Below are positions 9,372 to 60,412 of a stretch of DNA of 64,000 bases, in pieces. Location of the stretch: contig JAFOMZ010000173.1 of assembly GCA_017421125.1 (NCBI GenBank), forward strand, positions 1,209 to 65,208, written 5' to 3'. The position numbers were made by a program, and so were the translations under genes. Within the stretch, counting starts at the first letter, position 1; every line of letters begins with the position of its first letter. The notes below the pieces were generated by a model that saw nothing but the letters and a program-made list of their open reading frames with translations, was not told the origin of the DNA and searched no databases. Source of the stretch: Solobacterium sp. Its GTDB lineage: Bacteria > Bacillota_I > Bacilli_A > Erysipelotrichales > Erysipelotrichaceae.

Positions 9372-10012
9372 TCATATCTCCTTCGGTATTGTCACTTGAT
9401 TACAGCCGCATGGCTGAACAGATGAGTGAACTGAACGCTTCCGGTGCGGAATGGATTCATTTTGATGTCATGGACGGACACTTTGTCCCGAACCTGACAT
9501 TCGGTCCGGACCTGCTCAAAGCATTCCGCAAAATGAGCAGTCTTGTCCTCGATGTACATCTGATGGTAACGGATCCAGGATTCTTTTCGGATGTTTTCCT
9601 GAAAGCCGGAGCGGATGTTATTACATTCCATTATGAGGCTATGGGCAGTCCTGATGAGATCAGGTCACTTGCAAAGCATATCCGTGAACAGGGAGCGCTG
9701 GCAGGGATCTCCGTCAAGCCGGGAACCGATGTCAGTGTTCTGTATCCGTTCCTGGAAGACTTTGATCTGTTCCTGATCATGTCTGTTGAGCCCGGCTTCG
9801 GCGGACAGAGCTTCATGATGTCTGCAGTTGACAAGATCGCTGCACTCAGGGAAAAGCTGAATGAAGCAGGACTGCATGCACATATCGAAGTGGATGGCGG
9901 GATCAATGCCGAAACAGGCAGACTTGTCAAAGATGCAGGTGCCGATGTCCTGGTTGCCGGTTCCTACGTATTCAAAAACAACATCAAAGAGGCGGTGAAT
10001 TCACTTGTCTGA
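9368..10012 (+). CDS. rpe: Ribulose-phosphate 3-epimerase
   Basis: HFDVMDGHFVPN, MSVEPGFGGQ, EVDGGIN, VAGS. Confidence 0.97.
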   Translation: MIISPSVLSLDYSRMAEQMSELNASGAEWIHFDVMDGHFVPNLTFGPDLLKAFRKMSSLVLDVHLMVTDPGFFSDVFLKAGADVITFHYEAMGSPDEIRSLAKHIREQGALAGISVKPGTDVSVLYPFLEDFDLFLIMSVEPGFGGQSFMMSAVDKIAALREKLNEAGLHAHIEVDGGINAETGRLVKDAGADVLVAGSYVFKNNIKEAVNSLV

Positions 10013-10616
10013 GTGCATCGTATGCCTGACACTGACCAGCCGGCTGCCCGATGGTTCATGCGACCTGATCGGCGTAGACAGAGGTGCGCTGTTCCTGGCA
10101 AAGCACGGGAAGCGCATGAAGCTGTCTGTCGGAGACTTTGATTCGGTTGATGAGAAGGATCTGTCACTGATCAGGGAATACAGTGATGAAATGATCAGGC
10201 TGAATCCTGTCAAGGATGATTCCGATTCGGAATCCGCAATACGTCAGCTGATCAGCAGGGGATATCAGAAGATCACCCTGCTGGGCGGTCTGGGCGGCAG
10301 GGCGGACCATGAGATCGTCAATCTGAAGCTGGCGGAAGAGTTCGCCGGTCATATATGGCTGAAGAATGACCAGAACCTGATCACGGTCCTGAAGGAAGGA
10401 ACGTATGAGATCGATCCTGCGGGATATCGTTATATATCGTTCTTTGCCGTAATGCCTTCTGTCATCACACTGGAACAAATGAAATATCCGCTCAATGAGC
10501 GGATGCTGTATCCCGGTGATCTCTATGCGCTGTCCAATGAGATCACAGGAGATAAGGGGATCGTCCGGATCGCTTCCGGCAAGGTCCTGATGATACAATC
10601 AGATGATAAAAAATAA
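10005..10616 (+). CDS. thiN: Thiamine pyrophosphokinase
   Basis: GVDRGA, GDFDS, KDDSD, GGRADH, LSNE; conserved position after rpe; TTG start. Confidence 0.93.
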   Translation: MSECIVCLTLTSRLPDGSCDLIGVDRGALFLAKHGKRMKLSVGDFDSVDEKDLSLIREYSDEMIRLNPVKDDSDSESAIRQLISRGYQKITLLGGLGGRADHEIVNLKLAEEFAGHIWLKNDQNLITVLKEGTYEIDPAGYRYISFFAVMPSVITLEQMKYPLNERMLYPGDLYALSNEITGDKGIVRIASGKVLMIQSDDKK

Positions 10617-10633
10617 AAAGAACTTCCGTGAAG

Positions 10634-12318
10634 CAATGTCATTAAGTTAAAGATGACATTACAGAGCGAAAGGTCTGAAAAGAAAGAGAATCAGGAAGAC
10701 TGAGAGAACAATCTCAGGAAATCCTGATTCTTTTTTCTGAACAACGTTGATAGTCCTGTTGTGATTTCGCATTGAAAAGAACAGCGACCGCTGAATAAAT
10801 GCAGTTGTAATTAAGAGTACCAAATAGTATATTGTCCTTGTTAAGCCGTATAGTATGAGGGTGTCTTGCAGGACTGTGGCCTCACGTTACGACTGAATGA
10901 TCTTCCTGGTCTGATAGGGATCAGGAATTTTATTATTCTTCTTATTAGTTCTTCCTCATCGATTTCGTCATTCATGTAACGACGGATATTTGTGACAGCC
11001 AGTTTGAAATTAGTTTTATATCTCCGTTTGCATTTTTTGTTATGAGGTGGAGGAGTGTTGTTGACAAGGAACCGGCAGTAATTATGGAGAATTAAAGAGG
11101 CATAGATTTCCTGGCGGATCAGTTCCTGATTGGCAGAGTGAAAATACAACATACCAATGGTATACTTGAGATCCCTGAACGCTCCTTCCTCATTCCATCT
11201 CAGATGGTAAATAACTTTGAATTCATCTTCATTCATCTCATCTTCTGTAAGATTAGTAACCAGACATTCATAGGTATCTTCAGTGATTTTGAAACGCAGC
11301 ACTCTCAGGTTCATTTCATAGTATTCATTTTCAAAATCAATGTAATCAAATGGACTGTTGTTCATTAAAACCGCATAAAGCCCATTGTGTGTTGTCTCAC
11401 TGTTGTTAATACGTGTAACGATCTTGCGGATGTGAGTATCGAACGACTCGTTCGGAAGATCCAAAGTGGAAAGAATACCATTACTTCCGATATCCTTTAC
11501 ACGGATGATAAACTTCTGGTTGTTTTCTATAAATGCGGCTATCAGATTATATTTCTCATACCCTCTGTCACAGATAATGATGGATTTATCTGGATATTGT
11601 CTGCTGTGTATTATTTGAGTCAATGCATTGCATTCATTGCTTTTCTTCGCTGTATCAACATATACATCCTGGTAGATATTATTCAGTACATCATAAAGGG
11701 CATTTAAATGAAGCTGGTTATACCCCTTTGTGGCAGACGTCTGGATATAGTAAGTATCTTTATCTTTCGGATTATGACAGATATTGATATCTGAGCCGTC
11801 ACAAGCAAGCAGGTAATATCCGTTGTATGTTTTATAGTTATCGAAACTGTCTGTGAATAATCGAAAAACTCTTTTCACTGCCAATGAATCCAGCTTATAT
11901 CTCTGCTGGCATACAGCTGAAGCAGAAGGCATATCTTCCACATGATCATAGTGATTCATCAGATCGGAGTTTACGGATCTGTCTGAAAGCCGGATCAGAT
12001 AATGAATCAGTGCAGCACAGTTCATCTTTCTCTTGCGTGTAAAAGCAATGCCGGGATCTGTACAATAACATGCGATGTTGTCTGAAACCAGATTAACTGC
12101 ACGGTCCAGACCGGCCCGGATTGATGAAGGCGAATAATAGTAATTACTGGAAATCATAGTCGATTTTCCTCCTACAATTTCCTTCGGATTGTGTAAAAAT
12201 CGGCCTGTTTTCGTGTCAAGTCTTTTCTTCACCTTTTGAAGAAAAAAAGCCCTCAACCTGTTGCTTGGTTGAAAGCTTTTCACAGCCGCTACCTCAATGT
12301 CTTAACTTAATGACATTG
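10634..12318 (-). mobile_element. IS4-family insertion sequence, 1685 bp, apparently intact
   Basis: Perfect 17-bp terminal IRs CAATGTCATTAAGTTAA (10634-10650) and TTAACTTAATGACATTG (12302-12318). 9-bp direct repeat TCCGTGAAG at 10625-10633 and 12319-12327. Visibly AT-richer than its flanks. Confidence 0.95.
10841..12157 (-). CDS. IS4-family DDE transposase (~438 aa)
   Basis: FTRKRK, LACDGS, CDRGY, LVTNL, and YHLRWNEEGAFRDLK (YREK signature). Start placed at ATG 12157 behind a GGAGG RBS rather than at 12283. Confidence 0.92.
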   Translation of the reverse strand: MISSNYYYSPSSIRAGLDRAVNLVSDNIACYCTDPGIAFTRKRKMNCAALIHYLIRLSDRSVNSDLMNHYDHVEDMPSASAVCQQRYKLDSLAVKRVFRLFTDSFDNYKTYNGYYLLACDGSDINICHNPKDKDTYYIQTSATKGYNQLHLNALYDVLNNIYQDVYVDTAKKSNECNALTQIIHSRQYPDKSIIICDRGYEKYNLIAAFIENNQKFIIRVKDIGSNGILSTLDLPNESFDTHIRKIVTRINNSETTHNGLYAVLMNNSPFDYIDFENEYYEMNLRVLRFKITEDTYECLVTNLTEDEMNEDEFKVIYHLRWNEEGAFRDLKYTIGMLYFHSANQELIRQEIYASLILHNYCRFLVNNTPPPHNKKCKRRYKTNFKLAVTNIRRYMNDEIDEEELIRRIIKFLIPIRPGRSFSRNVRPQSCKTPSYYTA

Positions 12319-12334
12319 TCCGTGAAGTTCCTTT

Positions 12335-12565
12335 TTATTCTGCAGCAGGAGCTACTTCCTTTTCTGCAGCCGGCTTAGCTTTAGCGCCTGCTTTGAGTGT
12401 CTTCATCGCGCGGGCTGAAACACGAAGTGTTGTAGGCTTGCCGTCAACGATCACATGAACTTTCTGCAGGTTAACGTTCCACTTGCGGCGTGTCGCGCGC
12501 AGGGAGTGGGAACGGTTGTTTCCCGACATCGCTTTTTTACCGGATACGGCACAAACTCTGGACAT
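12335..12565 (-). CDS. rpmB: 50S ribosomal protein L28
   Basis: MSRVC...GNNRSHS...RRKWNVNLQ; GGAGG RBS. Confidence 0.97.
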
Positions 12566-12916
12566 ACCATAACCTCCTTACATAACAATGCCTAATTAGA
12601 TTAGCACGGAAAAATCCTAAATGCAACAAAAAGTGAATGTTCCTGCACTGAATCTCTGCCTGTTTTCTGCGGTAATTTATGCAGTGCTGTATATGTTCAT
12701 ACATATTCCTGAAGTACAGCGGTCCCTCAGGCAATGTTCTTCTGCGCACACCGTACAGACGGGAAGGGATATCTTTCTGCCGGAATGAAAAAATGAATCA
12801 TGTATCAGAAAGCGTTTCATGCATGGCTGAAAAAGAAATGTATATGCCTGAAATCTCTTTAGAAGATTTTGTGAATGTGGTAGAATAACTATGTTTAATC
12901 GGAAGGAGTTCAGACG

Positions 12917-14182
12917 GTGAGCGATAAGCAGATATTTGCAGCATTAGAAGCTGTTGATCATGAAGTACGTCTGATTGTGGGCGAATTCTTCAATACGCGC
13001 TTTAATATCATTAAAGTTGAGCGCACCCCGATCGAAGGGTTTACAGGCGGAGCCATTACTGATCCTGAAGCTGTAGCGAAAGGGATCAGAACTGCAGCGG
13101 TCGACGCATCCAAGATGATTGGAGCAGACATTGAGAAAGTGATCGTTGCAATGCCTTCATATGGAATGAAGAGATATTCCGTGAAGTCAACGGTTCCCGT
13201 AACAGGTATCGATGGTGCTGTGACAGTTGAAGATATCCGTGAAGCAGTCAGAAAAGCACAGTCAATCAGTATCGGAAAAGACCTCGCACTGATTCAGACC
13301 GTCTGTGTCAAATACACGGTGAACGGGATCACGTCAAGGCGTATTCCTGTCGGCGAAAAAGCAAATGCGCTGACAGTCGATATTGATCTGCTGTGTGCAG
13401 ACAGACAGCTGTCATTTGATATAGTCACATGCGTTGAACAGGCGGGACTGCAGGTCATCGATATTTTCCCTGATGTGTTTGCAGTGGCAAAGGAAGCTGC
13501 CCTGTTCGAACAGGCAGTCGATCAGAACGTGATCGTTCTGAAAATGGAAAGAAGCACCACAACACTGGGTCTTCTCAGCAAGGGCAGGCTGACGACCTGC
13601 ATCGTTGAGCCCCAGGGTGTTGGAACGATCGGCATGGCGGTCCAGGAGAAATACGGACTCAAGAGTGACGTTTGTGCCGAACTTGTCAAATACAGCGCAA
13701 GATTGAATGAAAAAGTCAATTCAACGAATCCCGTATACATCTGGGCAGATGCGGAAGGCGGAACACAGAAAATCAACGAGCAGCAGCTGTGTGACTGCAT
13801 ACGCGGAAATGTTGAAAAATGGCTTAATGATATGCAAAAACTGTGTCAGCCAATCTTGCAAGCAGGTCCGACTGCTGTTATTATAACTGGAGAAGGCGGC
13901 GAAATGCAGGGGCTGAAAGACCTGCTGCAGAAGAAGCTGGGCTGTGAAGTCCGCAACTATATTCCTGACACACTGGGTGGAAGGAACGCCGGTCTTACAG
14001 CGTGCCTTGGCCTGTTCTATGCTTTTAAGGACAAACAGCCGATTACCGGCTTCACAGAAAACAGCCTTGATATGGATGCATTCATGGATGCAGTCAGTTA
14101 CAGAGGCAGAGAAACAACAGGTAATCCTGAAGACACGATAACTAAAAAGCTGAAGGGTATTCTCTTCGACGGGAAAAAGTAG
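12917..14182 (+). CDS. ftsA: Cell division protein FtsA
   Basis: Actin-like fold motifs (IITGEGG), C-terminal amphipathic helix ITKKLKGILF, directly upstream of ftsZ; GTG start with AAGGAG RBS. Confidence 0.88.
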   Translation: MSDKQIFAALEAVDHEVRLIVGEFFNTRFNIIKVERTPIEGFTGGAITDPEAVAKGIRTAAVDASKMIGADIEKVIVAMPSYGMKRYSVKSTVPVTGIDGAVTVEDIREAVRKAQSISIGKDLALIQTVCVKYTVNGITSRRIPVGEKANALTVDIDLLCADRQLSFDIVTCVEQAGLQVIDIFPDVFAVAKEAALFEQAVDQNVIVLKMERSTTTLGLLSKGRLTTCIVEPQGVGTIGMAVQEKYGLKSDVCAELVKYSARLNEKVNSTNPVYIWADAEGGTQKINEQQLCDCIRGNVEKWLNDMQKLCQPILQAGPTAVIITGEGGEMQGLKDLLQKKLGCEVRNYIPDTLGGRNAGLTACLGLFYAFKDKQPITGFTENSLDMDAFMDAVSYRGRETTGNPEDTITKKLKGILFDGKK

Positions 14183-31471: not shown

Positions 31472-33280
31472 ATGGATCAGAAATATATTCGCAACTTCTG
31501 TATTATTGCCCATATCGATCACGGCAAGTCCACCCTGGCAGACCGTATCCTGGAAATGACCGATACGGTCCAGCAGCGCGATATGAAAAACCAGCTGCTG
31601 GATGACATGGAACTTGAACGTGAACGAGGCATTACGATCAAACTGAATGCTGTCCAGCTGAGCTATCACAGCAAGGACGGACATGATTATCTGTTCAACC
31701 TGATCGATACACCGGGTCATGTGGACTTCAGCTATGAAGTCTCCAGATCGCTCGCCGCCTGTGAAGGTGCAGTCCTGGTAGTCGATGCGACACAGGGCGT
31801 CCAGGCACAGACACTGGCAAATACGTATCTGGCACTGGACAACAACCTGGAGATCCTGCCTGTCATCAACAAGATCGACATGAACAATGCCCAGCCTGAC
31901 TTTGTGAAGCATGAGATCGAGAACATCATCGGTCTGGACTGCTCGGAAGCACCGATGATCTCTGCCCGTACGGGTATGAATGTCGACCAGGTGCTGGAAC
32001 AGATCGTCAGGTCGATCCCTGCGCCGGGAGGAGATCCTTCCGCTCCGCTGCAGGCACTCGTGTTCGATTCGTTCTACGATCCCTACAGGGGCGTCATCGC
32101 CCTGGTCAGGATCAGGGAAGGCTCCCTGAGCGTCGGGGACAAGATCCGCTTCATGGCGACCGGTGCTGAATATGAAGTACTGGAAGCAGGTATCCGCAAT
32201 CCGCGTGAGGTTCCCCTCAGGACACTCGGATGCGGTGATGTCGGATGGTTTGCGGCATCCATCAAATCCATCCAGGATGTCATGGTAGGTGATACCGTCA
32301 CTTCTGCCGCGCGTCCTGCAGCAGAGCCTCTGGAAGGCTACCGCCGCATGAACCCGATGGTCTACTGCGGTCTGTATCCCAGTGATGCCCAGAAGTACGG
32401 AGACCTCCGTGATGCGCTGGATAAGCTCAAGCTCAATGATGCTTCACTGGTATATGAACCGGAAACATCGCAGGCCCTGGGCTTCGGTTTCCGCTGCGGC
32501 TTCCTGGGACTGCTCCATATGGATGTCATCCAGGAACGTCTGGAACGTGAATACAACCTCGACCTGATCGCAACGGCTCCCTCTGTTATCTATCACTGCT
32601 ATCTCAGTGATGGTACGATGATCGCCGTAGATAACCCGGCAAAGATGCCGGACTTCTCGAAGATCGATCATCTGGAGGAACCATACGTCAAGGCTGATAT
32701 CATGGTGCCGGATACGTATATCGGCGCTGTCATGGATCTCTGCCAGAACAAGCGCGGGATCTATCAGTCCATGGAAGTTATCGATACGGGTCGAAACATG
32801 ATCACATACGAGCTTCCGCTGTCCGAGATCATCTTTGATTTCTTTGACCGGCTGAAGTCATGTTCCAAAGGATACGCTTCCCTGGACTATGAGATCATCG
32901 GATACCGTAAGGAAGACCTTGTCAGGATGGATATCCTGCTCAACGGGGAACCGGTGGACGCGCTGTCTGTCATCGTGCACAGAGGCGACGCATACCGCCG
33001 CGGAAGCCAGATCACTGTCAGGCTGAAGGAACTGATCCCCAAGCAGCAGTTTGAGATCCCTGTACAGGCAGCTGTCGGCGGCAAGGTCATTGCCAGGACC
33101 AATATCAAATCACTGCGCAAAAACGTGCTTGCCAAGTGCTACGGCGGTGATATTTCAAGAAAGAAAAAGCTGCTTGAAAAGCAGAAGGAAGGAAAGAAGC
33201 GCATGAAGGCGGTCGGCTCTGTCGTCATTCCGCAGGAAGCGTTCATGGCTGTGCTTTCCGTCAATGATGATGAAGGATAA
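31472..33280 (+). CDS. lepA: Elongation factor 4
   Basis: [56 protein letters not shown]. Confidence 0.99.
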
Positions 33281-44769: not shown

Positions 44770-45147
44770 ATGAAAGAATTCAAAGTACTGCGCTGCAAGG
44801 GCTGCGGAAAGATGGTCGTTACCCTGGCTGACAGTGCATGCCCTACAAAGTGCTGCGGAGAACCGATGGAAGAGCTGAAAGCCAACACGACTGACGGCGC
44901 GACTGAAAAGCATGTACCTGTCGTCACAAGAGAAGACGGCAAGCTGATCGTGAATGTCGGATCGGTTGATCATCCGATGATCGATGCACATTACATTCAG
45001 TGGGTCGCACTGGTAACAGACAACAGCTTCCGTATCGTAACTCTTGAACCGGGACAGAAGCCTCATGTTGAAGTGGCAGAGGATGAGAAAGTAAACGAAG
45101 TTTACGAATACTGCAATCTGCACGGACTCTGGAAGACAGAAGCATAA
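44770..45147 (+). CDS. dfx: Desulfoferrodoxin (superoxide reductase)
   Basis: CKGCG...CCGEPM, EKHVP, HPM, HYIQW, YCNLHGLW; own TTGCGA-17-CATAAT promoter and a terminator at 45152-45174. Confidence 0.93.
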   Translation: MKEFKVLRCKGCGKMVVTLADSACPTKCCGEPMEELKANTTDGATEKHVPVVTREDGKLIVNVGSVDHPMIDAHYIQWVALVTDNSFRIVTLEPGQKPHVEVAEDEKVNEVYEYCNLHGLWKTEA

Positions 45148-45205
45148 TTACAAAGCTGCGGACTGCAGCTTTTTAAAAAACAGGATAGAAAAGAGGATTT
45201 AAATT

Positions 45206-46345
45206 ATGACACTGATCAAAAACGGACGAATTCATGACATGGTCAACAGGGAACCGTACATCGCGGACATCCTGATCGAAAACGGTAAGATCAAGGCGAT
45301 CGGAATGGACCTGGCACCGGACGGGGATGTGTTTGACGCATCCGGCCTGGATGTATATCCCGGCTTCATCGATGCGCACAGCCACATCGGTGTTTCCGGC
45401 ACAGGCATCGGTTTTGAAGGCCATGACTATAACGAAATGAATGACATCTGCTCACCGGAAGTACGCGGGATCGACAGCTTCAACCCGTTTGATGCAAGCA
45501 TTCCCACAGCAGCGAAAGCAGGCATTACGACTGTTGCGGCAGGCCCCGGAAGCGCGAATGTCCTGGGCGGCACATGGATCGCGGTCAAGCTGCACGGTGT
45601 ATGTGTGGATGACATGATCGTCAAGGATCCCGTTGCCATGAAATGCGCATTCGGTGAGAATCCGAAGCGCTGCTACCAGAACAAAAACGCGAGCTCCCGT
45701 ATGTCTGTAGCAGCCCGTTTCCGCGACATCATGTATCAGGCCAGGGAATACATGCTGAAGAAAGAAGCAGCCGGAGATGACATTACAAAGAAGCCGCCGT
45801 TCAATCTGAAATATGAGTCACTGATCCCGGTGCTCAAAAAAGAGATCCCTCTGAAGGCACATGCGCACCAGGCAAACGATATTCTGACAGCGATCCGTCT
45901 GGCAAAGGAATTCGATGTTGACCTCACGCTTGAACATGTCACGGAAGGACACCTGATCGCTGATAAGCTTGCGGAGAACAAACAGTATATGATGGCTGTA
46001 GGACCGACATTTACCCATGCGTCCAAATATGAGCTGCAGTACAAGTCCTGGGAAACACCCGGTGTTCTTGCAGCAAAAGGATGCCATGTATCCATCGTGA
46101 CAGACCATCCGTTTGCTTTGGAAGAATATCTCCCGATCTATGCAGGCCTGGCTGTCAAAGCAGGCATGGATCCTTATGAAGCATTGAAGGCGATCACCAT
46201 CAATCCGGCAGAACATCTGCTGATCGCGGACAGGGTAGGATCGCTCGAAGCAGGCAAGGACGCCGATATCGTTGTCTACGAAGGCAGTCCGTTTGAAGTG
46301 ACATCCGAAGTCAGACTCGTTCTGATCGACGGTGTCTGCATCTGA
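45206..46345 (+). CDS. Metal-dependent amidohydrolase (second, different subgroup)
   Basis: PGFIDAHSHIG, PGSANVLGG, MKCAFGENPK, HAHQ, LEHVTEG, TDHP, GKDAD. Confidence 0.88.
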   Translation: MTLIKNGRIHDMVNREPYIADILIENGKIKAIGMDLAPDGDVFDASGLDVYPGFIDAHSHIGVSGTGIGFEGHDYNEMNDICSPEVRGIDSFNPFDASIPTAAKAGITTVAAGPGSANVLGGTWIAVKLHGVCVDDMIVKDPVAMKCAFGENPKRCYQNKNASSRMSVAARFRDIMYQAREYMLKKEAAGDDITKKPPFNLKYESLIPVLKKEIPLKAHAHQANDILTAIRLAKEFDVDLTLEHVTEGHLIADKLAENKQYMMAVGPTFTHASKYELQYKSWETPGVLAAKGCHVSIVTDHPFALEEYLPIYAGLAVKAGMDPYEALKAITINPAEHLLIADRVGSLEAGKDADIVVYEGSPFEVTSEVRLVLIDGVCI

Positions 46346-46397
46346 TCACAATACAGGAGGCAGGGTCCGTCCCTGTCTTTTCATATGCCCCGATCTC

Positions 46398-46431
46398 TTG
46401 CAGAGCAGTCTTATGTGGTGTAAAATTACAC
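46398..46431 (+). promoter_or_regulatory. Promoter of the XRE/radical SAM operon with overlapping dyad operator
   Basis: TTGCAG-17-TAAAAT; palindrome GTGTAA-AA-TTACAC (46418-46431) covers the -10. An upstream terminator at ~46357-46381 isolates the unit. Confidence 0.65.
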
Positions 46432-46453
46432 TATAAGAGAGAAAATAACTGTT

Positions 46454-46924
46454 ATGAAAAAGGAAGAACTGATCAATGTACTGAGCAATGAATGCAGGCT
46501 TGTCCGGGCTGAATTCGGGTTTTCACAGGATCAGATGGCACAGATACTCGGCATGTCGAAGAAGACGCTGGTAGAAACGGAGAAGGGCAGAAGAAAGCTG
46601 TCCTGGCCGGAGTGTATCGCGCTGGCTGTGATCTTTTCCCGCAGCCAGATCCTCGGCAATGAATTCGGCGGTGAGCTGTCGGACATGATCCGCGCTGTAT
46701 CATTTGATGACACGGATGTGCTATATCCGAAAACGATGGGCGGAAAGGTCTGGTGGCGCGATATCGAAGAACATAGCGGTTACCGCATCCAGCAGAACCT
46801 GCTTTCCCAGCATTACCGTCTGCTCGATCCGATGGACGGCAGGATGGTATCTTCATTTGATATTGAAGTGATCAGAAAATACATGAAGCAGAATGGCCTG
46901 ATTCATGAAACGGAGGCTTTATGA
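46454..46924 (+). CDS. XRE-family HTH regulator with an extra C-terminal domain
   Basis: RLVRAEFGFSQDQMAQILGMSKKTLVETEKG HTH; C-terminal KTMGGKVWW...RIQQN...HYRLLD. Confidence 0.85.
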   Translation: MKKEELINVLSNECRLVRAEFGFSQDQMAQILGMSKKTLVETEKGRRKLSWPECIALAVIFSRSQILGNEFGGELSDMIRAVSFDDTDVLYPKTMGGKVWWRDIEEHSGYRIQQNLLSQHYRLLDPMDGRMVSSFDIEVIRKYMKQNGLIHETEAL

Positions 46925-47823
46925 AAACGAGCTCATTTCTGGAACTTGCCGCATTCGGCGCAAAGACTGTACTGTTCAGGAAGAAAGATCCGATCCTCGG
47001 TACCGTCATCATCACCGACAGATGCAATCTTTCCTGCAGGCACTGTTCCGTCAATAATATTACTTCCGTGATGCATCCGTATGAAAAGGTTCACGGTGAG
47101 ATGCGGACACTGTACGATATGGGGATCAGGATCCTGTTTTTCTGCGGCGGTGAAACACTGCTGTGGAGGGACGGGGAACTGACTGTCCGTGATCTTGTCA
47201 TCGAGGCAAAACGGATGGGATTCCTGATCGTCAATATCGTGACGAACGGTACATTCCCGATCGATGTTCCGGAAGCGGACCTGATCCTGCTGAGCCTTGA
47301 CGGAGACAGGAAACGCCATAACATGATCCGCGGGGATACGTATGACACGATCATGGAGAATATCAGGAATGCCACGGCAGACAATATATGCTTCTACATG
47401 GCAGTCAATCAGATCAACAAGCATACGATCAGGGATGTCTGCTATGCGGCAAAGCACCTGAAAAATGTCAGGGCAGTCTCTTTCAACTTCCATACCCCGT
47501 ATCCCGATACGAAAGAGCTTGCACTGAGCAGGGAAGAGAAACAGGAATGCTGTGCAGTCATTGAAGAGATGATGAAGCGGGGCCTGCCGGTATTCAATCT
47601 CAAGAGCGCATTCCCGTATATCATCGACAATTCATTCCCGACACCATGCTGGCAGTGTGTTGTCATAGAAGACGGGAAGATCAGTACGTGCGGCAGGTGC
47701 ATCGATGTGCCCGGACTGTGTGAACAGTGCGGATACTTCTTTGTGGCAGAGTATACACTGCTGTTCTCCGGAAACGTCCCGGTGATCGCGGAAATGCTGG
47801 GAACCTATCTGAAATACATATAA
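46921..47823 (+). CDS. Radical SAM protein with Cys-rich C-terminus
   Basis: CNLSCRHC, GGE, TNG, SLDG; C-terminal CWQC...CGRC...CEQC; ATGA overlap with the XRE gene. Confidence 0.88.
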   Translation: MKTSSFLELAAFGAKTVLFRKKDPILGTVIITDRCNLSCRHCSVNNITSVMHPYEKVHGEMRTLYDMGIRILFFCGGETLLWRDGELTVRDLVIEAKRMGFLIVNIVTNGTFPIDVPEADLILLSLDGDRKRHNMIRGDTYDTIMENIRNATADNICFYMAVNQINKHTIRDVCYAAKHLKNVRAVSFNFHTPYPDTKELALSREEKQECCAVIEEMMKRGLPVFNLKSAFPYIIDNSFPTPCWQCVVIEDGKISTCGRCIDVPGLCEQCGYFFVAEYTLLFSGNVPVIAEMLGTYLKYI

Positions 47824-47832
47824 GGAGCGCAT

Positions 47833-49086
47833 ATGAGTATCATTACAGATCTGACAAGGGACTGGCTGACACGCTCTCTGCGTCCCTTTACATTTACACC
47901 GTCCTATGATGAAGTGCTTCCATACGGGGACTGCGATAATCTCGGTCTCTATATCCATATCCCGTTCTGCCGCAGCATCTGTTCATTCTGTCCGTACTGC
48001 AAGACCGTGTACCGGAAAGAAACATGTGACCGGTATATCGACGCATTGCTGGAAGAGATCAGAAATGTCGGAAATACATACCAGGGCAGAAAAAAAGTGA
48101 CAAGCCTGTATTTCGGCGGCGGTACGCCTGCGCTTGCGCACGCCCGTCTGAAAGAGATCATCGATGAAGTAAACAGACACTTTATCATTACGGACGGGAT
48201 CGGACTGGAACTGCATCCTGATGATGTGAGGGAACCGGTACTGAAAGAACTGAAGGAAGCAGGCGTTACCCGCATCAGTATCGGCATCCAGTCATTCCAT
48301 GATAAATACCAGGATATTCTCGGCAGACGGACCGTTGACATCAAAGCAATGAAAGAGGCTCTTGAAGCAGTCCCGTTTGAAACGGTATCCATGGACCTGA
48401 TCTTTGCGCTTCCCTCACAGACGCTCTATGAACTGGAAGAAGATGTTGAAACGGCATTCGGTCACGGAGCCAATCATGTCGCGGTATATCCGTTCATTGA
48501 TTTTACATTCACCGACAGCAAGCTTAAAGCAATGTCCAAGCAGGAGAAACATGCACTGCTGGACGGAATAACGAATTACTGTCTTGCCAAAGGCTATCAG
48601 CGTACATCGATCTGGACGTTCGCAAAAGAGAAGAATGCCGTATATTCTTCCATGACGAGGGAGAGCTTTCTCGGTTTCGGATGTTCCGCCGCAACACTGC
48701 TGAGAGACCAGTTCAAGATCAATACATTTTCCGTTGACGAATACTGCAAGCGGATCGCTGAAGGAAAGCTTCCGACATCACTGACCATCCGGTTTACCCG
48801 GAGGCAGAGAATGGTCTACTGGCTGTTCTGGACACTGTACAGCACGCATCTGGATCCTCAGGATTTCCAAAGATTCTTCGGTGTTTCCCTGGATCAGATG
48901 TATGGCGCGGAATTCATTCTGGCGCAGCTGCTCGGCTTCCTGAAAAAAGAGCAGGGGATCTATCATATGACACTGCGGGGAGCGTTCTATTATCACTACT
49001 ATGAGAACTACTATACGCTCGCGTATATCGATAAGATGTGGGGCATCATGAGACTTGAAGCATTCCCGGAGCGGATCGAACTTTAA
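47833..49086 (+). CDS. HemN-like radical SAM protein (candidate class C methyltransferase)
   Basis: LYIHIPFCRSICSFCPY, YFGGGTP, RISIGIQSF, MDLIF; lacks the HemW HNxxYW motif. Confidence 0.85.
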   Translation: MSIITDLTRDWLTRSLRPFTFTPSYDEVLPYGDCDNLGLYIHIPFCRSICSFCPYCKTVYRKETCDRYIDALLEEIRNVGNTYQGRKKVTSLYFGGGTPALAHARLKEIIDEVNRHFIITDGIGLELHPDDVREPVLKELKEAGVTRISIGIQSFHDKYQDILGRRTVDIKAMKEALEAVPFETVSMDLIFALPSQTLYELEEDVETAFGHGANHVAVYPFIDFTFTDSKLKAMSKQEKHALLDGITNYCLAKGYQRTSIWTFAKEKNAVYSSMTRESFLGFGCSAATLLRDQFKINTFSVDEYCKRIAEGKLPTSLTIRFTRRQRMVYWLFWTLYSTHLDPQDFQRFFGVSLDQMYGAEFILAQLLGFLKKEQGIYHMTLRGAFYYHYYENYYTLAYIDKMWGIMRLEAFPERIEL

Positions 49087-49161
49087 CTGTTCGCATACGA
49101 GGAAAAAGTTCTCAAGTAATTCTACAGTCCTTATTTTGTTATGACAAAATTTTAAACAACT

Positions 49162-49220
49162 AAAGAGCACAGTTTCCGGTCTGTCTGAATGCAGATCGCT
49201 GAAGGATCTGTGCTTTTTTT
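49162..49220 (+). terminator. Long hairpin terminator ending the radical SAM operon
   Basis: AAAGAGCACAG...CTGTGCTTTTTTT enclosing an inner GGTCTG/CAGATC stem. Confidence 0.7.
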
Positions 49221-49755: not shown

Positions 49756-50535
49756 ATGGATGAGAACAACAGACTGAATGATGAACAGTTTCTGAAAAAG
49801 GTCGAAGAAGCTGCCAGGAAAGGGGCAGGCAAGGGCAAACTCAACAGTTTCCTGATACAGGCTCTGCTGATCCTGCTCATCGTTGGAGGAGCAGTGTATT
49901 TCATCAATACCAAGGTAAATACATTCAATGAAAAGCTGGAAAGCGTCTTCCATTTTGAAGACCCGGCAGAAAACCATGACCTTGTCCTGGAAAACAATGG
50001 GATCTTCGGATATACAGCAGCCAATTTTGAAGATGCCATTCTTGGTGACTCACAGAAACAGAAAAAGCTGCAGGTCATGACACAGGAAGTCTCCGATGTC
50101 AGTACGGTCACGGAAGCAGGCCTGCTCAACTGGAGCGTATTCACGAAGAACCAGCTGATCACTTACAACGGAACAGCAGTGTATACAGTCGATCTGTCTG
50201 AGATCGGCAGATCGGATATCTCTTTCAACGAGGAAGAAAAGACCGTTACACTGAAGATCCCGCATGCTGTTCAGGAAGAGATCAATATTCCGGAAGACAA
50301 GATCCAGTTCGGTGATACGACAGGCGGTCTGCTGGCATTCGGTGACCTTCATATGACACCGGAACAGATCGCGGATGTACAGGCAGGTGCAAGGAAAAAG
50401 ATGGAACAGAAGCTGGAAGAGGATCATGTGATCGACCAGGCTGACCGGTTTGCAAAGCTTGTTGTCTGGGAACTGTATTCACCGATCATCAAGGGTGTCG
50501 GCAAAGACGTCTCACTGGTCGTGGAATTCAAATAA
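49756..50535 (+). CDS. DUF4230-like membrane-anchored protein
   Basis: Single N-terminal TM, ITYNGTAVYTVDLS...VTLKIPHA pattern; GGGAGG RBS; terminator at 50559-50585. Confidence 0.7.
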   Translation: MDENNRLNDEQFLKKVEEAARKGAGKGKLNSFLIQALLILLIVGGAVYFINTKVNTFNEKLESVFHFEDPAENHDLVLENNGIFGYTAANFEDAILGDSQKQKKLQVMTQEVSDVSTVTEAGLLNWSVFTKNQLITYNGTAVYTVDLSEIGRSDISFNEEEKTVTLKIPHAVQEEINIPEDKIQFGDTTGGLLAFGDLHMTPEQIADVQAGARKKMEQKLEEDHVIDQADRFAKLVVWELYSPIIKGVGKDVSLVVEFK

Positions 50536-60188: not shown

Positions 60189-60194
60189 CGTTAT

Positions 60195-60412
60195 GGCTGT
60201 GAAAGGAATAAGTACTTTATGCGAAGCCGTACAAGAGACGTCCCGGGCGGTGAAAGGGACCGGCAGACCATGGAAGGAATACATCCCGGAGCTTCCTGTC
60301 TCAAAAGGCAGGGCGTGTGCGCCTGCGTTAAAGGCATAGATGAGTGCATGATCAGGATCATGAACTAAGGTGGTACCGCGCTGAGGCGTCCTTAGAGTTT
60401 AAGGGCGCCTTT
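60195..60412 (+). ncRNA. T-box riboswitch (Tyr)
   Basis: AGTA/GA motif, AGAGA and GGTGAAA stem I elements, specifier TAC at 60280-60282, T-box AAGGTGGTACCGCG (60367-60380), hairpin at 60384-60410. Confidence 0.93.

What the first reader, a model, noticed from the sequence alone, without database searches (positions are those of the whole stretch)
46398..49220. Self-contained XRE + dual radical SAM operon of unknown chemistry
Seen: a promoter-to-terminator unit of three tightly coupled genes, namely an XRE regulator, a 300-aa radical SAM with six C-terminal cysteines (possible auxiliary Fe-S cluster), and a 417-aa HemN-like radical SAM. The latter is not the housekeeping HemW, which lies at 33264 and has the HNxxYW motif this one lacks. 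Established: HemN-like enzymes include class C methyltransferases and cyclopropanases (NosN, C10P, MenK/MqnK). Inference from remembered motifs: its amphipathic N-terminus and WTF, NTFS..EY and RM.Y.LF...FG segments look MenK/MqnK-like, and the partner's K.P..RCNL.C..C start and C..CGY end look loosely HpnH-like. Both families act on lipophilic substrates. This may be an inducible two-step radical modification of a membrane lipid, quinone or dietary compound.
Basis: partly seen in the sequence, partly recalled or inferred. Interest (0 to 1): 0.78.

Follow-up and report, generated by a model that had tools for sequence, protein, structure and literature searches.

The report
Mobile twin radical-SAM lipid-modifying module
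Two radical-SAM enzyme genes that stay together across many gut and sediment anaerobes form an uncharacterised module that likely adds a one-carbon unit to a membrane-bound lipid and then likely alters it in a second radical step; here they sit behind a small regulator gene whose predicted binding site overlaps the likely promoter.

Summary
The three genes are real, but the conserved unit is the enzyme pair, not the trio. The HemN-like enzyme (B) lies next to the 300-aa enzyme (A) in 79 of 80 gut genome loci and near it in 61 of 80 distant loci (about 30-36% identity), in either order. The XRE gene is adjacent in only 2 of 80. Its palindromic operator (46417-46432) is conserved before 8 of 8 XRE relatives and recurs before A in two other lineages. 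B is not HemW, HemN or ChuW. It is a sister family of the MenK/MqnK-type methyltransferases but fails membership (1 of 6 motifs), and 41 of 50 carriers lack any UbiA/MenA, so endogenous menaquinone is unlikely. A is twitch-like with one likely auxiliary cluster; the HpnH likeness is weak. Distant loci add a secreted START-fold lipid-binding protein (19-20 of 80) and, in one lineage, an ole-like hydrocarbon operon, pointing to a lipid substrate. Best reading (0.4): B adds C1 to a lipid C=C, A acts on the product. Substrate unproven. The scan noted this pair three times before on other DNA; I found no paper on it.

The parts
46355..46381 (+). Stem-loop with following T run after the upstream amidohydrolase gene; likely its terminator
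   Evidence: Fold of 46346-46400, -15.3 kcal/mol; not called by the scan; function inferred
46398..46426 (+). Weak sigma70-like promoter (TTGCAG-17-TAAAAT), 8 of 12 consensus bases
   Evidence: Sequence; below the threshold of the scan; inferred
46417..46432 (.). Palindromic operator GGTGTAAAATTACACT (consensus AGTGTAAnnTTACACT) overlapping the -10 box; predicted XRE binding site
   Evidence: Conserved before 8 of 8 XRE-family genes; unique in window, 0 in 100 shuffles; directly before A in L052 and L304
46454..46924 (+). XRE-family HTH regulator with an unassigned C-terminal domain (156 aa); local addition to the enzyme pair
   Evidence: Pfam HTH_3; in 8 of 61 genomes of the genus, beside the pair in 2 of those 8
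46921..47823 (+). Radical SAM enzyme A (300 aa), twitch-like C-terminal Cys cluster C246/C257/C260/C267/C270-G-Y, predicted single auxiliary [4Fe-4S] site
   Evidence: PF04055; no NCBIfam cut-off met; model pLDDT 94.6; nearest folds BlsE, SkfB, Tes; Cys conservation
47833..49086 (+). HemN-like radical SAM enzyme B (417 aa), sister family of MenK/MqnK-type methyltransferases, amphipathic basic N-terminus
   Evidence: Best family PRK08629 197.8 bits < 355; motif census; tree; hydrophobic moment
49190..49220 (+). Intrinsic-terminator-like hairpin with T7 run
   Evidence: Scan (count not above chance); fold

Best explanation
Genes A and B form a mobile, co-inherited two-enzyme module that likely works at the inner face of the membrane on an unsaturated hydrocarbon lipid that these hosts likely scavenge or make (most likely a C=C of an acyl chain): B is predicted to add a SAM-derived one-carbon unit, and A is predicted to carry out a second radical step on that product. 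Shown: the pairing, B's place beside MenK-type methyltransferases, A's conserved Cys set, START-fold and ole-like neighbours, absence of quinone synthesis in most carriers. From established class C chemistry (PMC10114718): SAM1 gives a 5'-deoxyadenosyl radical, which takes H from the methyl of SAM2; the methylene radical adds to an sp2 carbon, ending as a methyl, methylene or cyclopropane with loss of SAH. Inferred: B acts first, because B is kept without A in several genomes while gut-type A was not found without B; A abstracts H (or adds its adenosyl radical) and uses its auxiliary cluster to oxidise or hold the substrate radical, as proposed for Tes/Gms, giving a desaturated, ring-closed or cross-linked chain. 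In this genome the pair is predicted to be co-transcribed behind an autoregulated XRE repressor; the signal is unknown and most carriers have no such regulator.
For: Pair adjacent in 79 of 80 gut loci (the 80th contig ends 46 bases after A), B within the locus in 61 of 80 distant loci, both gene orders; A and B unlinked yet both present in G343. B without A: G063, G754, G794, G749 and Clostridium estertheticum plasmids; these rows nest among paired ones. B family plus the one over-cut-off PRK08629 protein (4 of 6 MKMT motifs) form a clade apart from HemW/HemN/ChuW-like rows, SH 99. B's N-terminal stretch is at the 99th percentile of hydrophobic moment in the protein and basic across the family; no transmembrane helix. 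A signal-peptide-bearing START/SRPBCC-fold protein is in 19 (by ORF) to 20 (tblastn) of 80 distant loci, in several parts of the A tree. oleB-, two oleA-, oleC- and oleD-like genes run directly into A in 4 of 80 (OleC-type family 614 > 478). UbiA/MenA over cut-off in 9 of 50 carriers and not in this genome; menB, mqnA/D, cydA not found over cut-off in 5 of 5 tested. fabF not found in this genome or 2 close relatives, so acyl chains would be scavenged.
Against: No direct evidence of substrate. Immediate neighbours of gut loci are unrelated to lipids and to each other. The ole link is one clade, 4 of its 6 rows, and 0 of 50 gut carriers have OleC over cut-off. The module does not replace Cfa: 4 of 14 carriers against 35 of 237 non-carriers have cfa in the same Lachnospiraceae sample, p = 0.24. 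START folds also bind quinones, sterols and aromatic polyketides (top hit is an aromatase). A's N-terminal amphipathicity is unremarkable in this protein (71st percentile), and its best fold match is BlsE, which acts on a soluble nucleoside. Two distinct distant A sequences have long flanks without B (L119/L120, L169/L171). Characterised class C enzymes mostly act on aromatic or conjugated carbons, not isolated cis-alkenes (PMC10114718).
Confidence: 0.4

Rival explanations
1. B methylates the aromatic ring of a scavenged quinone or other aromatic lipophile (menaquinone from neighbours, phylloquinone, alkylresorcinol), as MenK does, and A modifies the product further, for detoxification or redox tuning.
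For: Closest family is MenK-type; NxFxxxxY in 75 of 75 gut and 36 of 36 distant B, strict QxTxYPLx in 11 of 36 distant B; START fold resembles aromatic-ligand binders.
Against: Four of the six MKMT motifs are met by 0 of 111 B sequences; 41 of 50 carriers lack UbiA/MenA; no cytochrome bd in 5 of 5 tested, so no obvious use for a quinone.
Confidence: 0.2
2. The pair remodels or opens a tetrapyrrole (heme or chlorophyll-derived pheophorbide) in ChuW-like fashion, with A acting like AhbC/NirJ on side chains.
For: B scores 151.6 on ChuW/HutW and A-family members score best on AhbC/NirJ-like models, e.g. 69.1 bits for the L175 protein; the MenK-clade protein of C. jejuni binds heme (PMC10320005, passages); carriers live where plant pigment is abundant (herbivore gut, sediments).
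Against: All scores are far under cut-offs (400; 650); B groups away from ChuW-like and HemN rows; HemN motifs absent in 111 of 111; no heme uptake or heme-degradation partner among 40 operonic neighbours scanned.
Confidence: 0.12
3. The pair makes or modifies a small soluble molecule (nucleoside-like, possibly antiviral as with prokaryotic viperins, or a peptide product) and spreads as a defence or conflict cassette.
For: Patchy distribution (about 5% of sampled Oscillospiraceae and Lachnospiraceae), near-identical copies across phyla, A's fold is nearest BlsE, SkfB and viperin; one copy on a viral contig.
Against: Viperin model 30.9 < 180, PADLOC hits weak and limited to the core; no conserved neighbour or upstream sequence that could be a precursor or exporter (ORFs under 70 aa were not clustered); lipid-type neighbours in distant loci.
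Confidence: 0.1
4. The substrate is a scavenged sterol or other isoprenoid (sterol, squalene, phytol, undecaprenol); B alkylates a ring or chain C=C and A adds an adenosyl group as HpnH does.
For: START folds carry sterols and ceramides; an SDR precedes A in 4 and an MMPL/LolA-like pair in 1 of 80 distant loci; A's C..CGY....E tail and a related Atlas cluster with DUF3463 in 14% of members; known lipid-modifying radical SAM enzymes act almost only on isoprenoids (PMC13459092).
Against: HpnH score 29.7 < 225 and no DUF3463 hit on A; the ole-like genes point to straight-chain lipids; SDR and MMPL are unspecific.
Confidence: 0.1

Closest known systems
MenK/MqnK/MenK2 menaquinone methyltransferases (class C radical SAM; NCBIfam PRK08629/NF006385 appears to model them)
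   Same: HemN fold, YP[LF], S.W.F and (N/T)TFS...Y segments, extra C-terminal helix; sister clade to B; best family score for B
   Different: B scores 197.8 < 355; 1 of 6 signature motifs; hosts mostly have no menaquinone pathway; B has a dedicated partner enzyme. That PRK08629 equals this family rests on one over-cut-off protein with 4 of 6 motifs and on recall, not on a characterised sequence
Jaw5, C10P/YtkT, NosN (class C cyclopropanases and methylene transferases)
   Same: Same two-SAM chemistry predicted; C10P also needs a partner enzyme; NocN is one of two PDB sequence hits (E 9e-20)
   Different: They sit in natural-product clusters and act on conjugated or aromatic intermediates; their partner is a polar methyltransferase, not a second radical SAM enzyme
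Tes/GDGT-MAS, Gms, Mss (lipid cross-linking radical SAM enzymes with auxiliary clusters)
   Same: Tes is the only PDB sequence hit for A (E 9.5e-6) and ties among top folds (Z 20.4, rmsd 3.9, 242 aligned)
   Different: A is 300 aa with no N-terminal metal domains, Tes model 41.3 < 450; Mss already accounts for diabolic acids, including in Butyrivibrio (PMC13159169); Mss and Gms sequences were not compared
HpnH (adenosylhopane synthase) and PTO1314 family (TIGR03961)
   Same: Similar size and a Cys-rich C..CGY....E tail; PTO1314 is A's best family (49.8 bits)
   Different: Far below cut-offs (225; 306); no DUF3463 hit; PTO1314 is itself uncharacterised
Twitch-domain radical SAM enzymes BlsE and SkfB
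   Same: Best structural matches: BlsE Z 21.9, rmsd 3.3, 259 aligned; SkfB Z 20.6, rmsd 3.7, 254 aligned
   Different: 16-20% identity; no precursor peptide or nucleoside cluster seen; shared fold shows no function
HemW, HemN, ChuW/HutW
   Same: HemN-like superfamily
   Different: Cut-offs and signature motifs not met; the genome has its own HemW at 33264

Membership tests
MenK/MqnK (MKMT) | Six signature motifs of Wilkens 2021 as tabulated in PMC10320005 Table 2 | tested here: not met
   B meets only NxFxxxxY; YFxxxRxE, GxxFxxxYxGGGT, RxSxGxQxFxxxxL and strict LYxHxPFCxxxCxxCxF in 0 of 75 gut and 0 of 36 distant B; QxTxYPLx in 0 of 75 and 11 of 36
MenK/MqnK (MKMT) | Score over the PRK08629 cut-off (355) | tested here: not met
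   197.8 for B; 164-219 for four distant B; 430.8 for a motif-bearing control, L295
MenK/MqnK (MKMT) | Host makes menaquinone (men or mqn pathway, UbiA-family prenyltransferase) | tested here: not met
   PF01040 over cut-off in 9 of 50 carriers, none in G000 (84.6% complete) or two close relatives; menB, mqnA/D not over cut-off in 5 of 5
MenK/MqnK (MKMT) | Falls inside the clade of characterised MenK/MqnK | tested here: inconclusive
   Sister to one PRK08629 protein, SH 99, long branch; no characterised MenK sequence could be fetched
Class C radical SAM methyltransferases | HemN homology with CxxxCxxC and conserved SAM-site segments (LYxH, GGGTP, E, Q, R, D) | tested here: met
   Alignment to 1OLT, E 3.5e-24; Y40, C46/50/53, G95-97, E126, R165, D188 invariant in 43 of 43
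Class C radical SAM methyltransferases | Transfers C1 from SAM with equal 5'-dAH and SAH | not testable with these tools
   Needs an assay
HemW | HNxxYW motif and TIGR00539 cut-off 205.4 | tested here: not met
   0 of 111 B have the motif; 161.4 bits
HemN | GPRYTSYP and RNFQGY motifs; TIGR00538 cut-off 325 | tested here: not met
   0 of 111; 131 bits
ChuW/HutW | TIGR04107 cut-off 400; heme-uptake context | tested here: not met
   151.6 bits; no heme-uptake family among 40 neighbours
HpnH | TIGR03470 cut-off 225; DUF3463 domain | tested here: not met
   29.7 bits; no DUF3463 at E 0.1
HpnH | Host has squalene-hopene cyclase | not tested
   No search run
Tes / PTO1314 | NF045702 cut-off 450; TIGR03961 cut-off 306 | tested here: not met
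   41.3 and 49.8 bits
SPASM/twitch radical SAM | C-terminal Cys set binding an auxiliary cluster on a hairpin-helix extension | tested here: inconclusive
   C257, C267, C270 in 82 of 82 and 77 of 77, C246 in 82 and 76, fifth Cys at 260 or 258; hairpin 246-256 in model; top folds are twitch/SPASM; but no SPASM Pfam hit, NF033640 27.3 < 170, and only C267/C270 hold in the widest alignment
Prokaryotic viperin | NF038283 cut-off 180 | tested here: not met
   30.9 bits; PADLOC pVip 33.7 bits over the core only
RiPP maturase cluster | Conserved precursor peptide gene and RRE/transport genes | tested here: inconclusive
   No conserved neighbour of 70 aa or more and no conserved upstream DNA; shorter ORFs not clustered

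The most novel reading that the evidence does not exclude
A and B are an undescribed two-step radical route by which anaerobes, from rumen Clostridia to sediment lineages, install a SAM-derived carbon on an unactivated C=C of straight-chain membrane lipids or head-to-head olefins and then ring-close, desaturate or cross-link it, giving a lipid class not yet recognised in gut microbiomes; the same chemistry on scavenged sterols could be a source of the A-ring-alkylated steroids of sediments (that link is recalled; I saw only a reference title in PMC5606710).
Probability: 0.25. Interest if true: 0.8.

Novelty: new variant of a known kind. Interest (0 to 1): 0.52.

Why it matters
A module kept together at about 30% identity and moved between phyla in guts, with thousands of protein clusters (4,520 and 4,862 hits at E 0.001, including other radical SAM relatives), implies a selected chemistry that nobody has assigned. 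A 2026 review says radical SAM lipid modification is almost confined to isoprenoid lipids (PMC13459092), so a class C enzyme plus a twitch enzyme acting on acyl chains would be new enzymology and could yield an unrecognised rumen or gut lipid. It is directly testable: two genes, cultured carriers (Dysosmobacter segnis BX15, Vescimonas sanitatis MH37-1, Butyrivibrio AE3009 and X503), and a defined operator. It also shows that the MenK lineage has a widespread sister branch in organisms without quinones.

Tried and rejected
Trio as conserved operon: rejected. Endogenous menaquinone methylation: rejected for most carriers. Diabolic-acid synthase: dropped because Mss homologues already cover Butyrivibrio and Thermotoga (PMC13159169, passages and section 8). 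Replacement of Cfa: 0 of 59 chosen carriers have cfa but background is 1 of 151 in Oscillospiraceae and the unbiased Lachnospiraceae sample shows no exclusion; rejected. Ole olefins as the general substrate: rejected for gut carriers (0 of 50). A-B complex prediction: no verdict, score 0.00 against a mark of 0.32; no evidence either way. A as a recent duplicate of B: only the shared core aligns (hhalign probability 76%). Expression: two RNA libraries held one short, low-depth contig each inside B; inconclusive. Riboswitch or RNA family in the unit: none. Foreign composition: GC3 of A and B lies within the genome's range (91st and 54th percentile). Whether the three operator-bearing lineages arose once or independently: p-AU 0.164, unresolved. 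No XRE relative found in the L052 genome, a 1.8-Mb MAG. No characterised MenK sequence could be obtained from plasmid, viral or Bacilli searches. Paper searches with no description of the pair; subscription journals, including Hein 2017/2018 and Wilkens 2021, are outside the library and were not seen, and their supplements may list B-family sequences. No model of B was made (fold cap spent on A and the START protein). The third homologue search was not used.
Full report
Observation. The window is G000:C64:1209-65208 of an 84.6%-complete genome; its nearest loci are Solobacterium MAGs from ruminants (97-98% identity in A). The three ORFs are as described: XRE 46454-46924, enzyme A 46921-47823, enzyme B 47833-49086. 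A true HemW lies at 33264 (301 bits against 205.4). The promoter is a weak match and the terminator count is at chance level, but a stem-loop closes the upstream amidohydrolase gene, so a three-gene transcript is plausible and unshown. RNA libraries gave only two short low-depth contigs in B.

The conserved unit is the pair. B follows A directly in 79 of 80; the 80th contig ends after A. The XRE is adjacent in 2 of 80, both Solobacterium. No other neighbour recurs in more than a few loci, and 40 operonic neighbours scanned are unrelated. Hosts include Lachnospiraceae, Oscillospiraceae, Butyrivibrio, Treponemataceae, Kiritimatiellia and Verrucomicrobiota at 75-81% identity, with identical or near-identical A in different phyla: horizontal spread. 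The trait is patchy: B in 7 of 151 Oscillospiraceae and 14 of 251 Lachnospiraceae (each count includes the carrier used as centre), A in 4 of 61 genomes of the own genus and 3 of 201 of the sampled phylum (own genome included). Seen from B, 11 of 14 Lachnospiraceae copies have A adjacent. A was not found elsewhere in G794, G754, G749 or G063, but G343 has A and B on different contigs. B also stands alone on C. estertheticum plasmids at 41% identity. B-only rows nest among paired ones, so A has been lost repeatedly; I infer that B acts first or suffices.

Distant homologues. A metagenome scan with divergent A sequences (about 30-36% identity to the window's A) gave 80 loci. A B homologue lies in 61, within 1 kb in 59, in both orders and in two cases on the other strand; of the 19 without, four (two distinct sequences) have over 5 kb on both sides, the rest are mostly short. 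These B proteins share the family's invariant residues. A roughly 190-230-aa protein with a hydrophobic N-terminus occurs in 19 loci by ORF (20 by tblastn), mostly between A and B; it has no Pfam match but its model (pLDDT 86) is a START/SRPBCC fold (ZhuI E 2e-8, TTHA0849, CERT START). It appears in several parts of the A tree, which suggests an old third component. In four loci of one clade, ole-like genes run directly into A: in L175 an alpha/beta hydrolase, two FabH/OleA-like genes, an OleC-type ligase (614 > 478) and an OleD-like reductase (349 and 309 < 580); two other rows of that clade lack them, and 0 of 50 gut carriers have OleC over cut-off. An SDR precedes A in four loci, an MMPL/LolA-like pair in one. 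These are the only substrate clues and they point to hydrophobic molecules. The apparent A-START fusion in L164 holds an ambiguous residue at the junction and is likely an artefact.

Enzyme B. No NCBIfam cut-off is met; the best is PRK08629 (197.8 of 355), then HemW 161.4, STM4012 156.1, ChuW/HutW 151.6, HemN 131. Against the six MKMT motifs quoted in PMC10320005 Table 2, B meets one; across 75 gut and 36 distant sequences NxFxxxxY is universal, QxTxYPLx is in 11 distant ones, the other four are absent, as are HemW and HemN motifs. One over-cut-off PRK08629 protein was found among 181 genomes (L295, 430.8 bits); it has 4 of 6 motifs, takes B-family rows as its best matches, and groups with them at SH 99 on a long branch. 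So B is a sister of the MenK type and not a member. Hosts argue against menaquinone: UbiA family over cut-off in 9 of 50 carriers; menB, mqnA/D and cydA not over cut-off in 5 of 5. The N-terminus is amphipathic and basic, without a transmembrane helix.

Enzyme A. Best families are PTO1314 (49.8 of 306), Tes (41.3 of 450), NirJ1, AhbC, viperin; HpnH is eighth (29.7 of 225). The model (pLDDT 94.6) matches BlsE (Z 21.9), SkfB (20.6) and Tes (20.4), the last two tied. C246, C257, C267, C270-G-Y and E277 hold in both clades, with a fifth Cys at 260 or 258; in the widest alignment only C267 and C270 hold. One auxiliary cluster is the likely reading. The complex prediction gave no verdict (see Tried and rejected).

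The regulator. The XRE family occurs in 8 of 61 genomes of the genus; in six it precedes a small membrane protein or a PstS-like binding protein instead. All 8 have AGTGTAAnnTTACACT just upstream. In the window it overlaps the -10 box at 46417-46432 and is unique, the mark of an autoregulated repressor (inferred). The same site stands directly before A, with no adjacent XRE, in Anaerotignum L052 (perfect; only site in that genome) and G222 L304 (2 mismatches): 2 of 99 upstream regions against 0.11 in shuffles. A single origin with XRE loss cannot be rejected (p-AU 0.164). In G222 one-mismatch sites are no commoner than the reversed control (9 against 10), so L304 alone is weak. Most carriers have a plain promoter-like sequence or sit behind an unrelated gene. 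XRE control is therefore real here but not part of the core system.

Mechanism. From class C chemistry (PMC10114718, main text parts 1-3 and supplement read), B would generate a SAM methylene radical and add it to an sp2 carbon. Membrane-type termini, START and ole-like neighbours and the lack of quinones favour an unsaturated lipid chain; fabF was not found in this genome or two relatives, so it would be scavenged. A would then act on the product using its auxiliary cluster, by analogy to Tes/Gms (PMC13459092, outline, passages and section 2 parts 1-2 read). I put 0.4 on an acyl/olefin C=C, about 0.7 on a lipophilic substrate of any kind (adding quinone/aromatic 0.2 and isoprenoid 0.1), 0.12 on a tetrapyrrole, 0.1 on a soluble or defence product, the rest on something else. 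Against the lead: no exclusion with cfa, the ole link is one event, gut neighbours are mute.

Novelty. Ten paper searches showed no description of the pair. Other papers seen: PMC10320005, PMC13274423, 10.1101/2025.09.17.676790 and PMC5606710 as passages; PMC13159169 as passages and section 8; the rest as listings only. Three earlier notes of this scan describe the same pair on other genomes without a substrate. New here are the MenK-sister placement with a motif census, the negative quinone and cfa tests, the START and ole-like contexts and the operator. Both enzymes belong to known superfamilies, so I file it as a new variant of a known kind; interest 0.52, 0.8 if the lipid chemistry proves new.

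Noticed in passing
L092-L098, L312, L308, L313, L316, L318, L320: The P0001-type XRE and its operator AGTGTAAnnTTACACT define a small regulon in this genus: an unnamed ~170-aa membrane protein and a membrane-anchored PBP_like_2 (PstS-like) protein. In G222 six perfect 14-bp sites occur, some beside repeat arrays and ATPase-like genes.
   Followed up: partly
L013, L014, L015, L020, L021, L025, L032, L042, L043, L055, L073, L077 upstream of A: About a dozen loci (by eye) share a promoter-like TTGAAA...TATAAT followed by a TGTGTACACA-like palindrome; several are followed after B by the start of a gene that looks like a MobC relaxosome protein (label recalled), suggesting carriage on a mobilisable element.
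   Followed up: no
L154, L175, L179, L181: An ole-like operon with two adjacent, different FabH/OleA-like genes, as in heterodimeric beta-lactone condensing enzymes (comparison recalled), in a sediment lineage.
   Followed up: partly
L116:1778-3957: The pair lies among genes typical of Patescibacteria (pilin-like, coupling-protein-like, PilT-like; inferred from translations), organisms thought to scavenge lipids.
   Followed up: no
L084:1272-3435: The pair lies on a viral contig next to lysis-type genes on the other strand; cargo or host flank not decided.
   Followed up: no
L246:2-1462: A second, diverged partial copy of A (50% over 175 aa) lies directly upstream of the full A.
   Followed up: no
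window 44770-46345 and 49756-50535: Desulfoferrodoxin and amidohydrolase upstream, DUF4230 downstream of the unit; kept only in close Solobacterium relatives.
   Followed up: partly
window 60190-60396: T-box leader, 111 bits over gathering score 93.
   Followed up: no
window 10001-13000: GC drops to about 0.41 against about 0.50 elsewhere; possible acquired segment.
   Followed up: no
G000, G260, G261: No fabF match in three related Solobacterium genomes, suggesting fatty-acid auxotrophy; G000 is 84.6% complete.
   Followed up: partly
L295 (G1020:C13): A MenK-type protein (PRK08629 430.8 bits, 4 of 6 motifs) in 1 of 181 genomes of the phylum of G287.
   Followed up: partly
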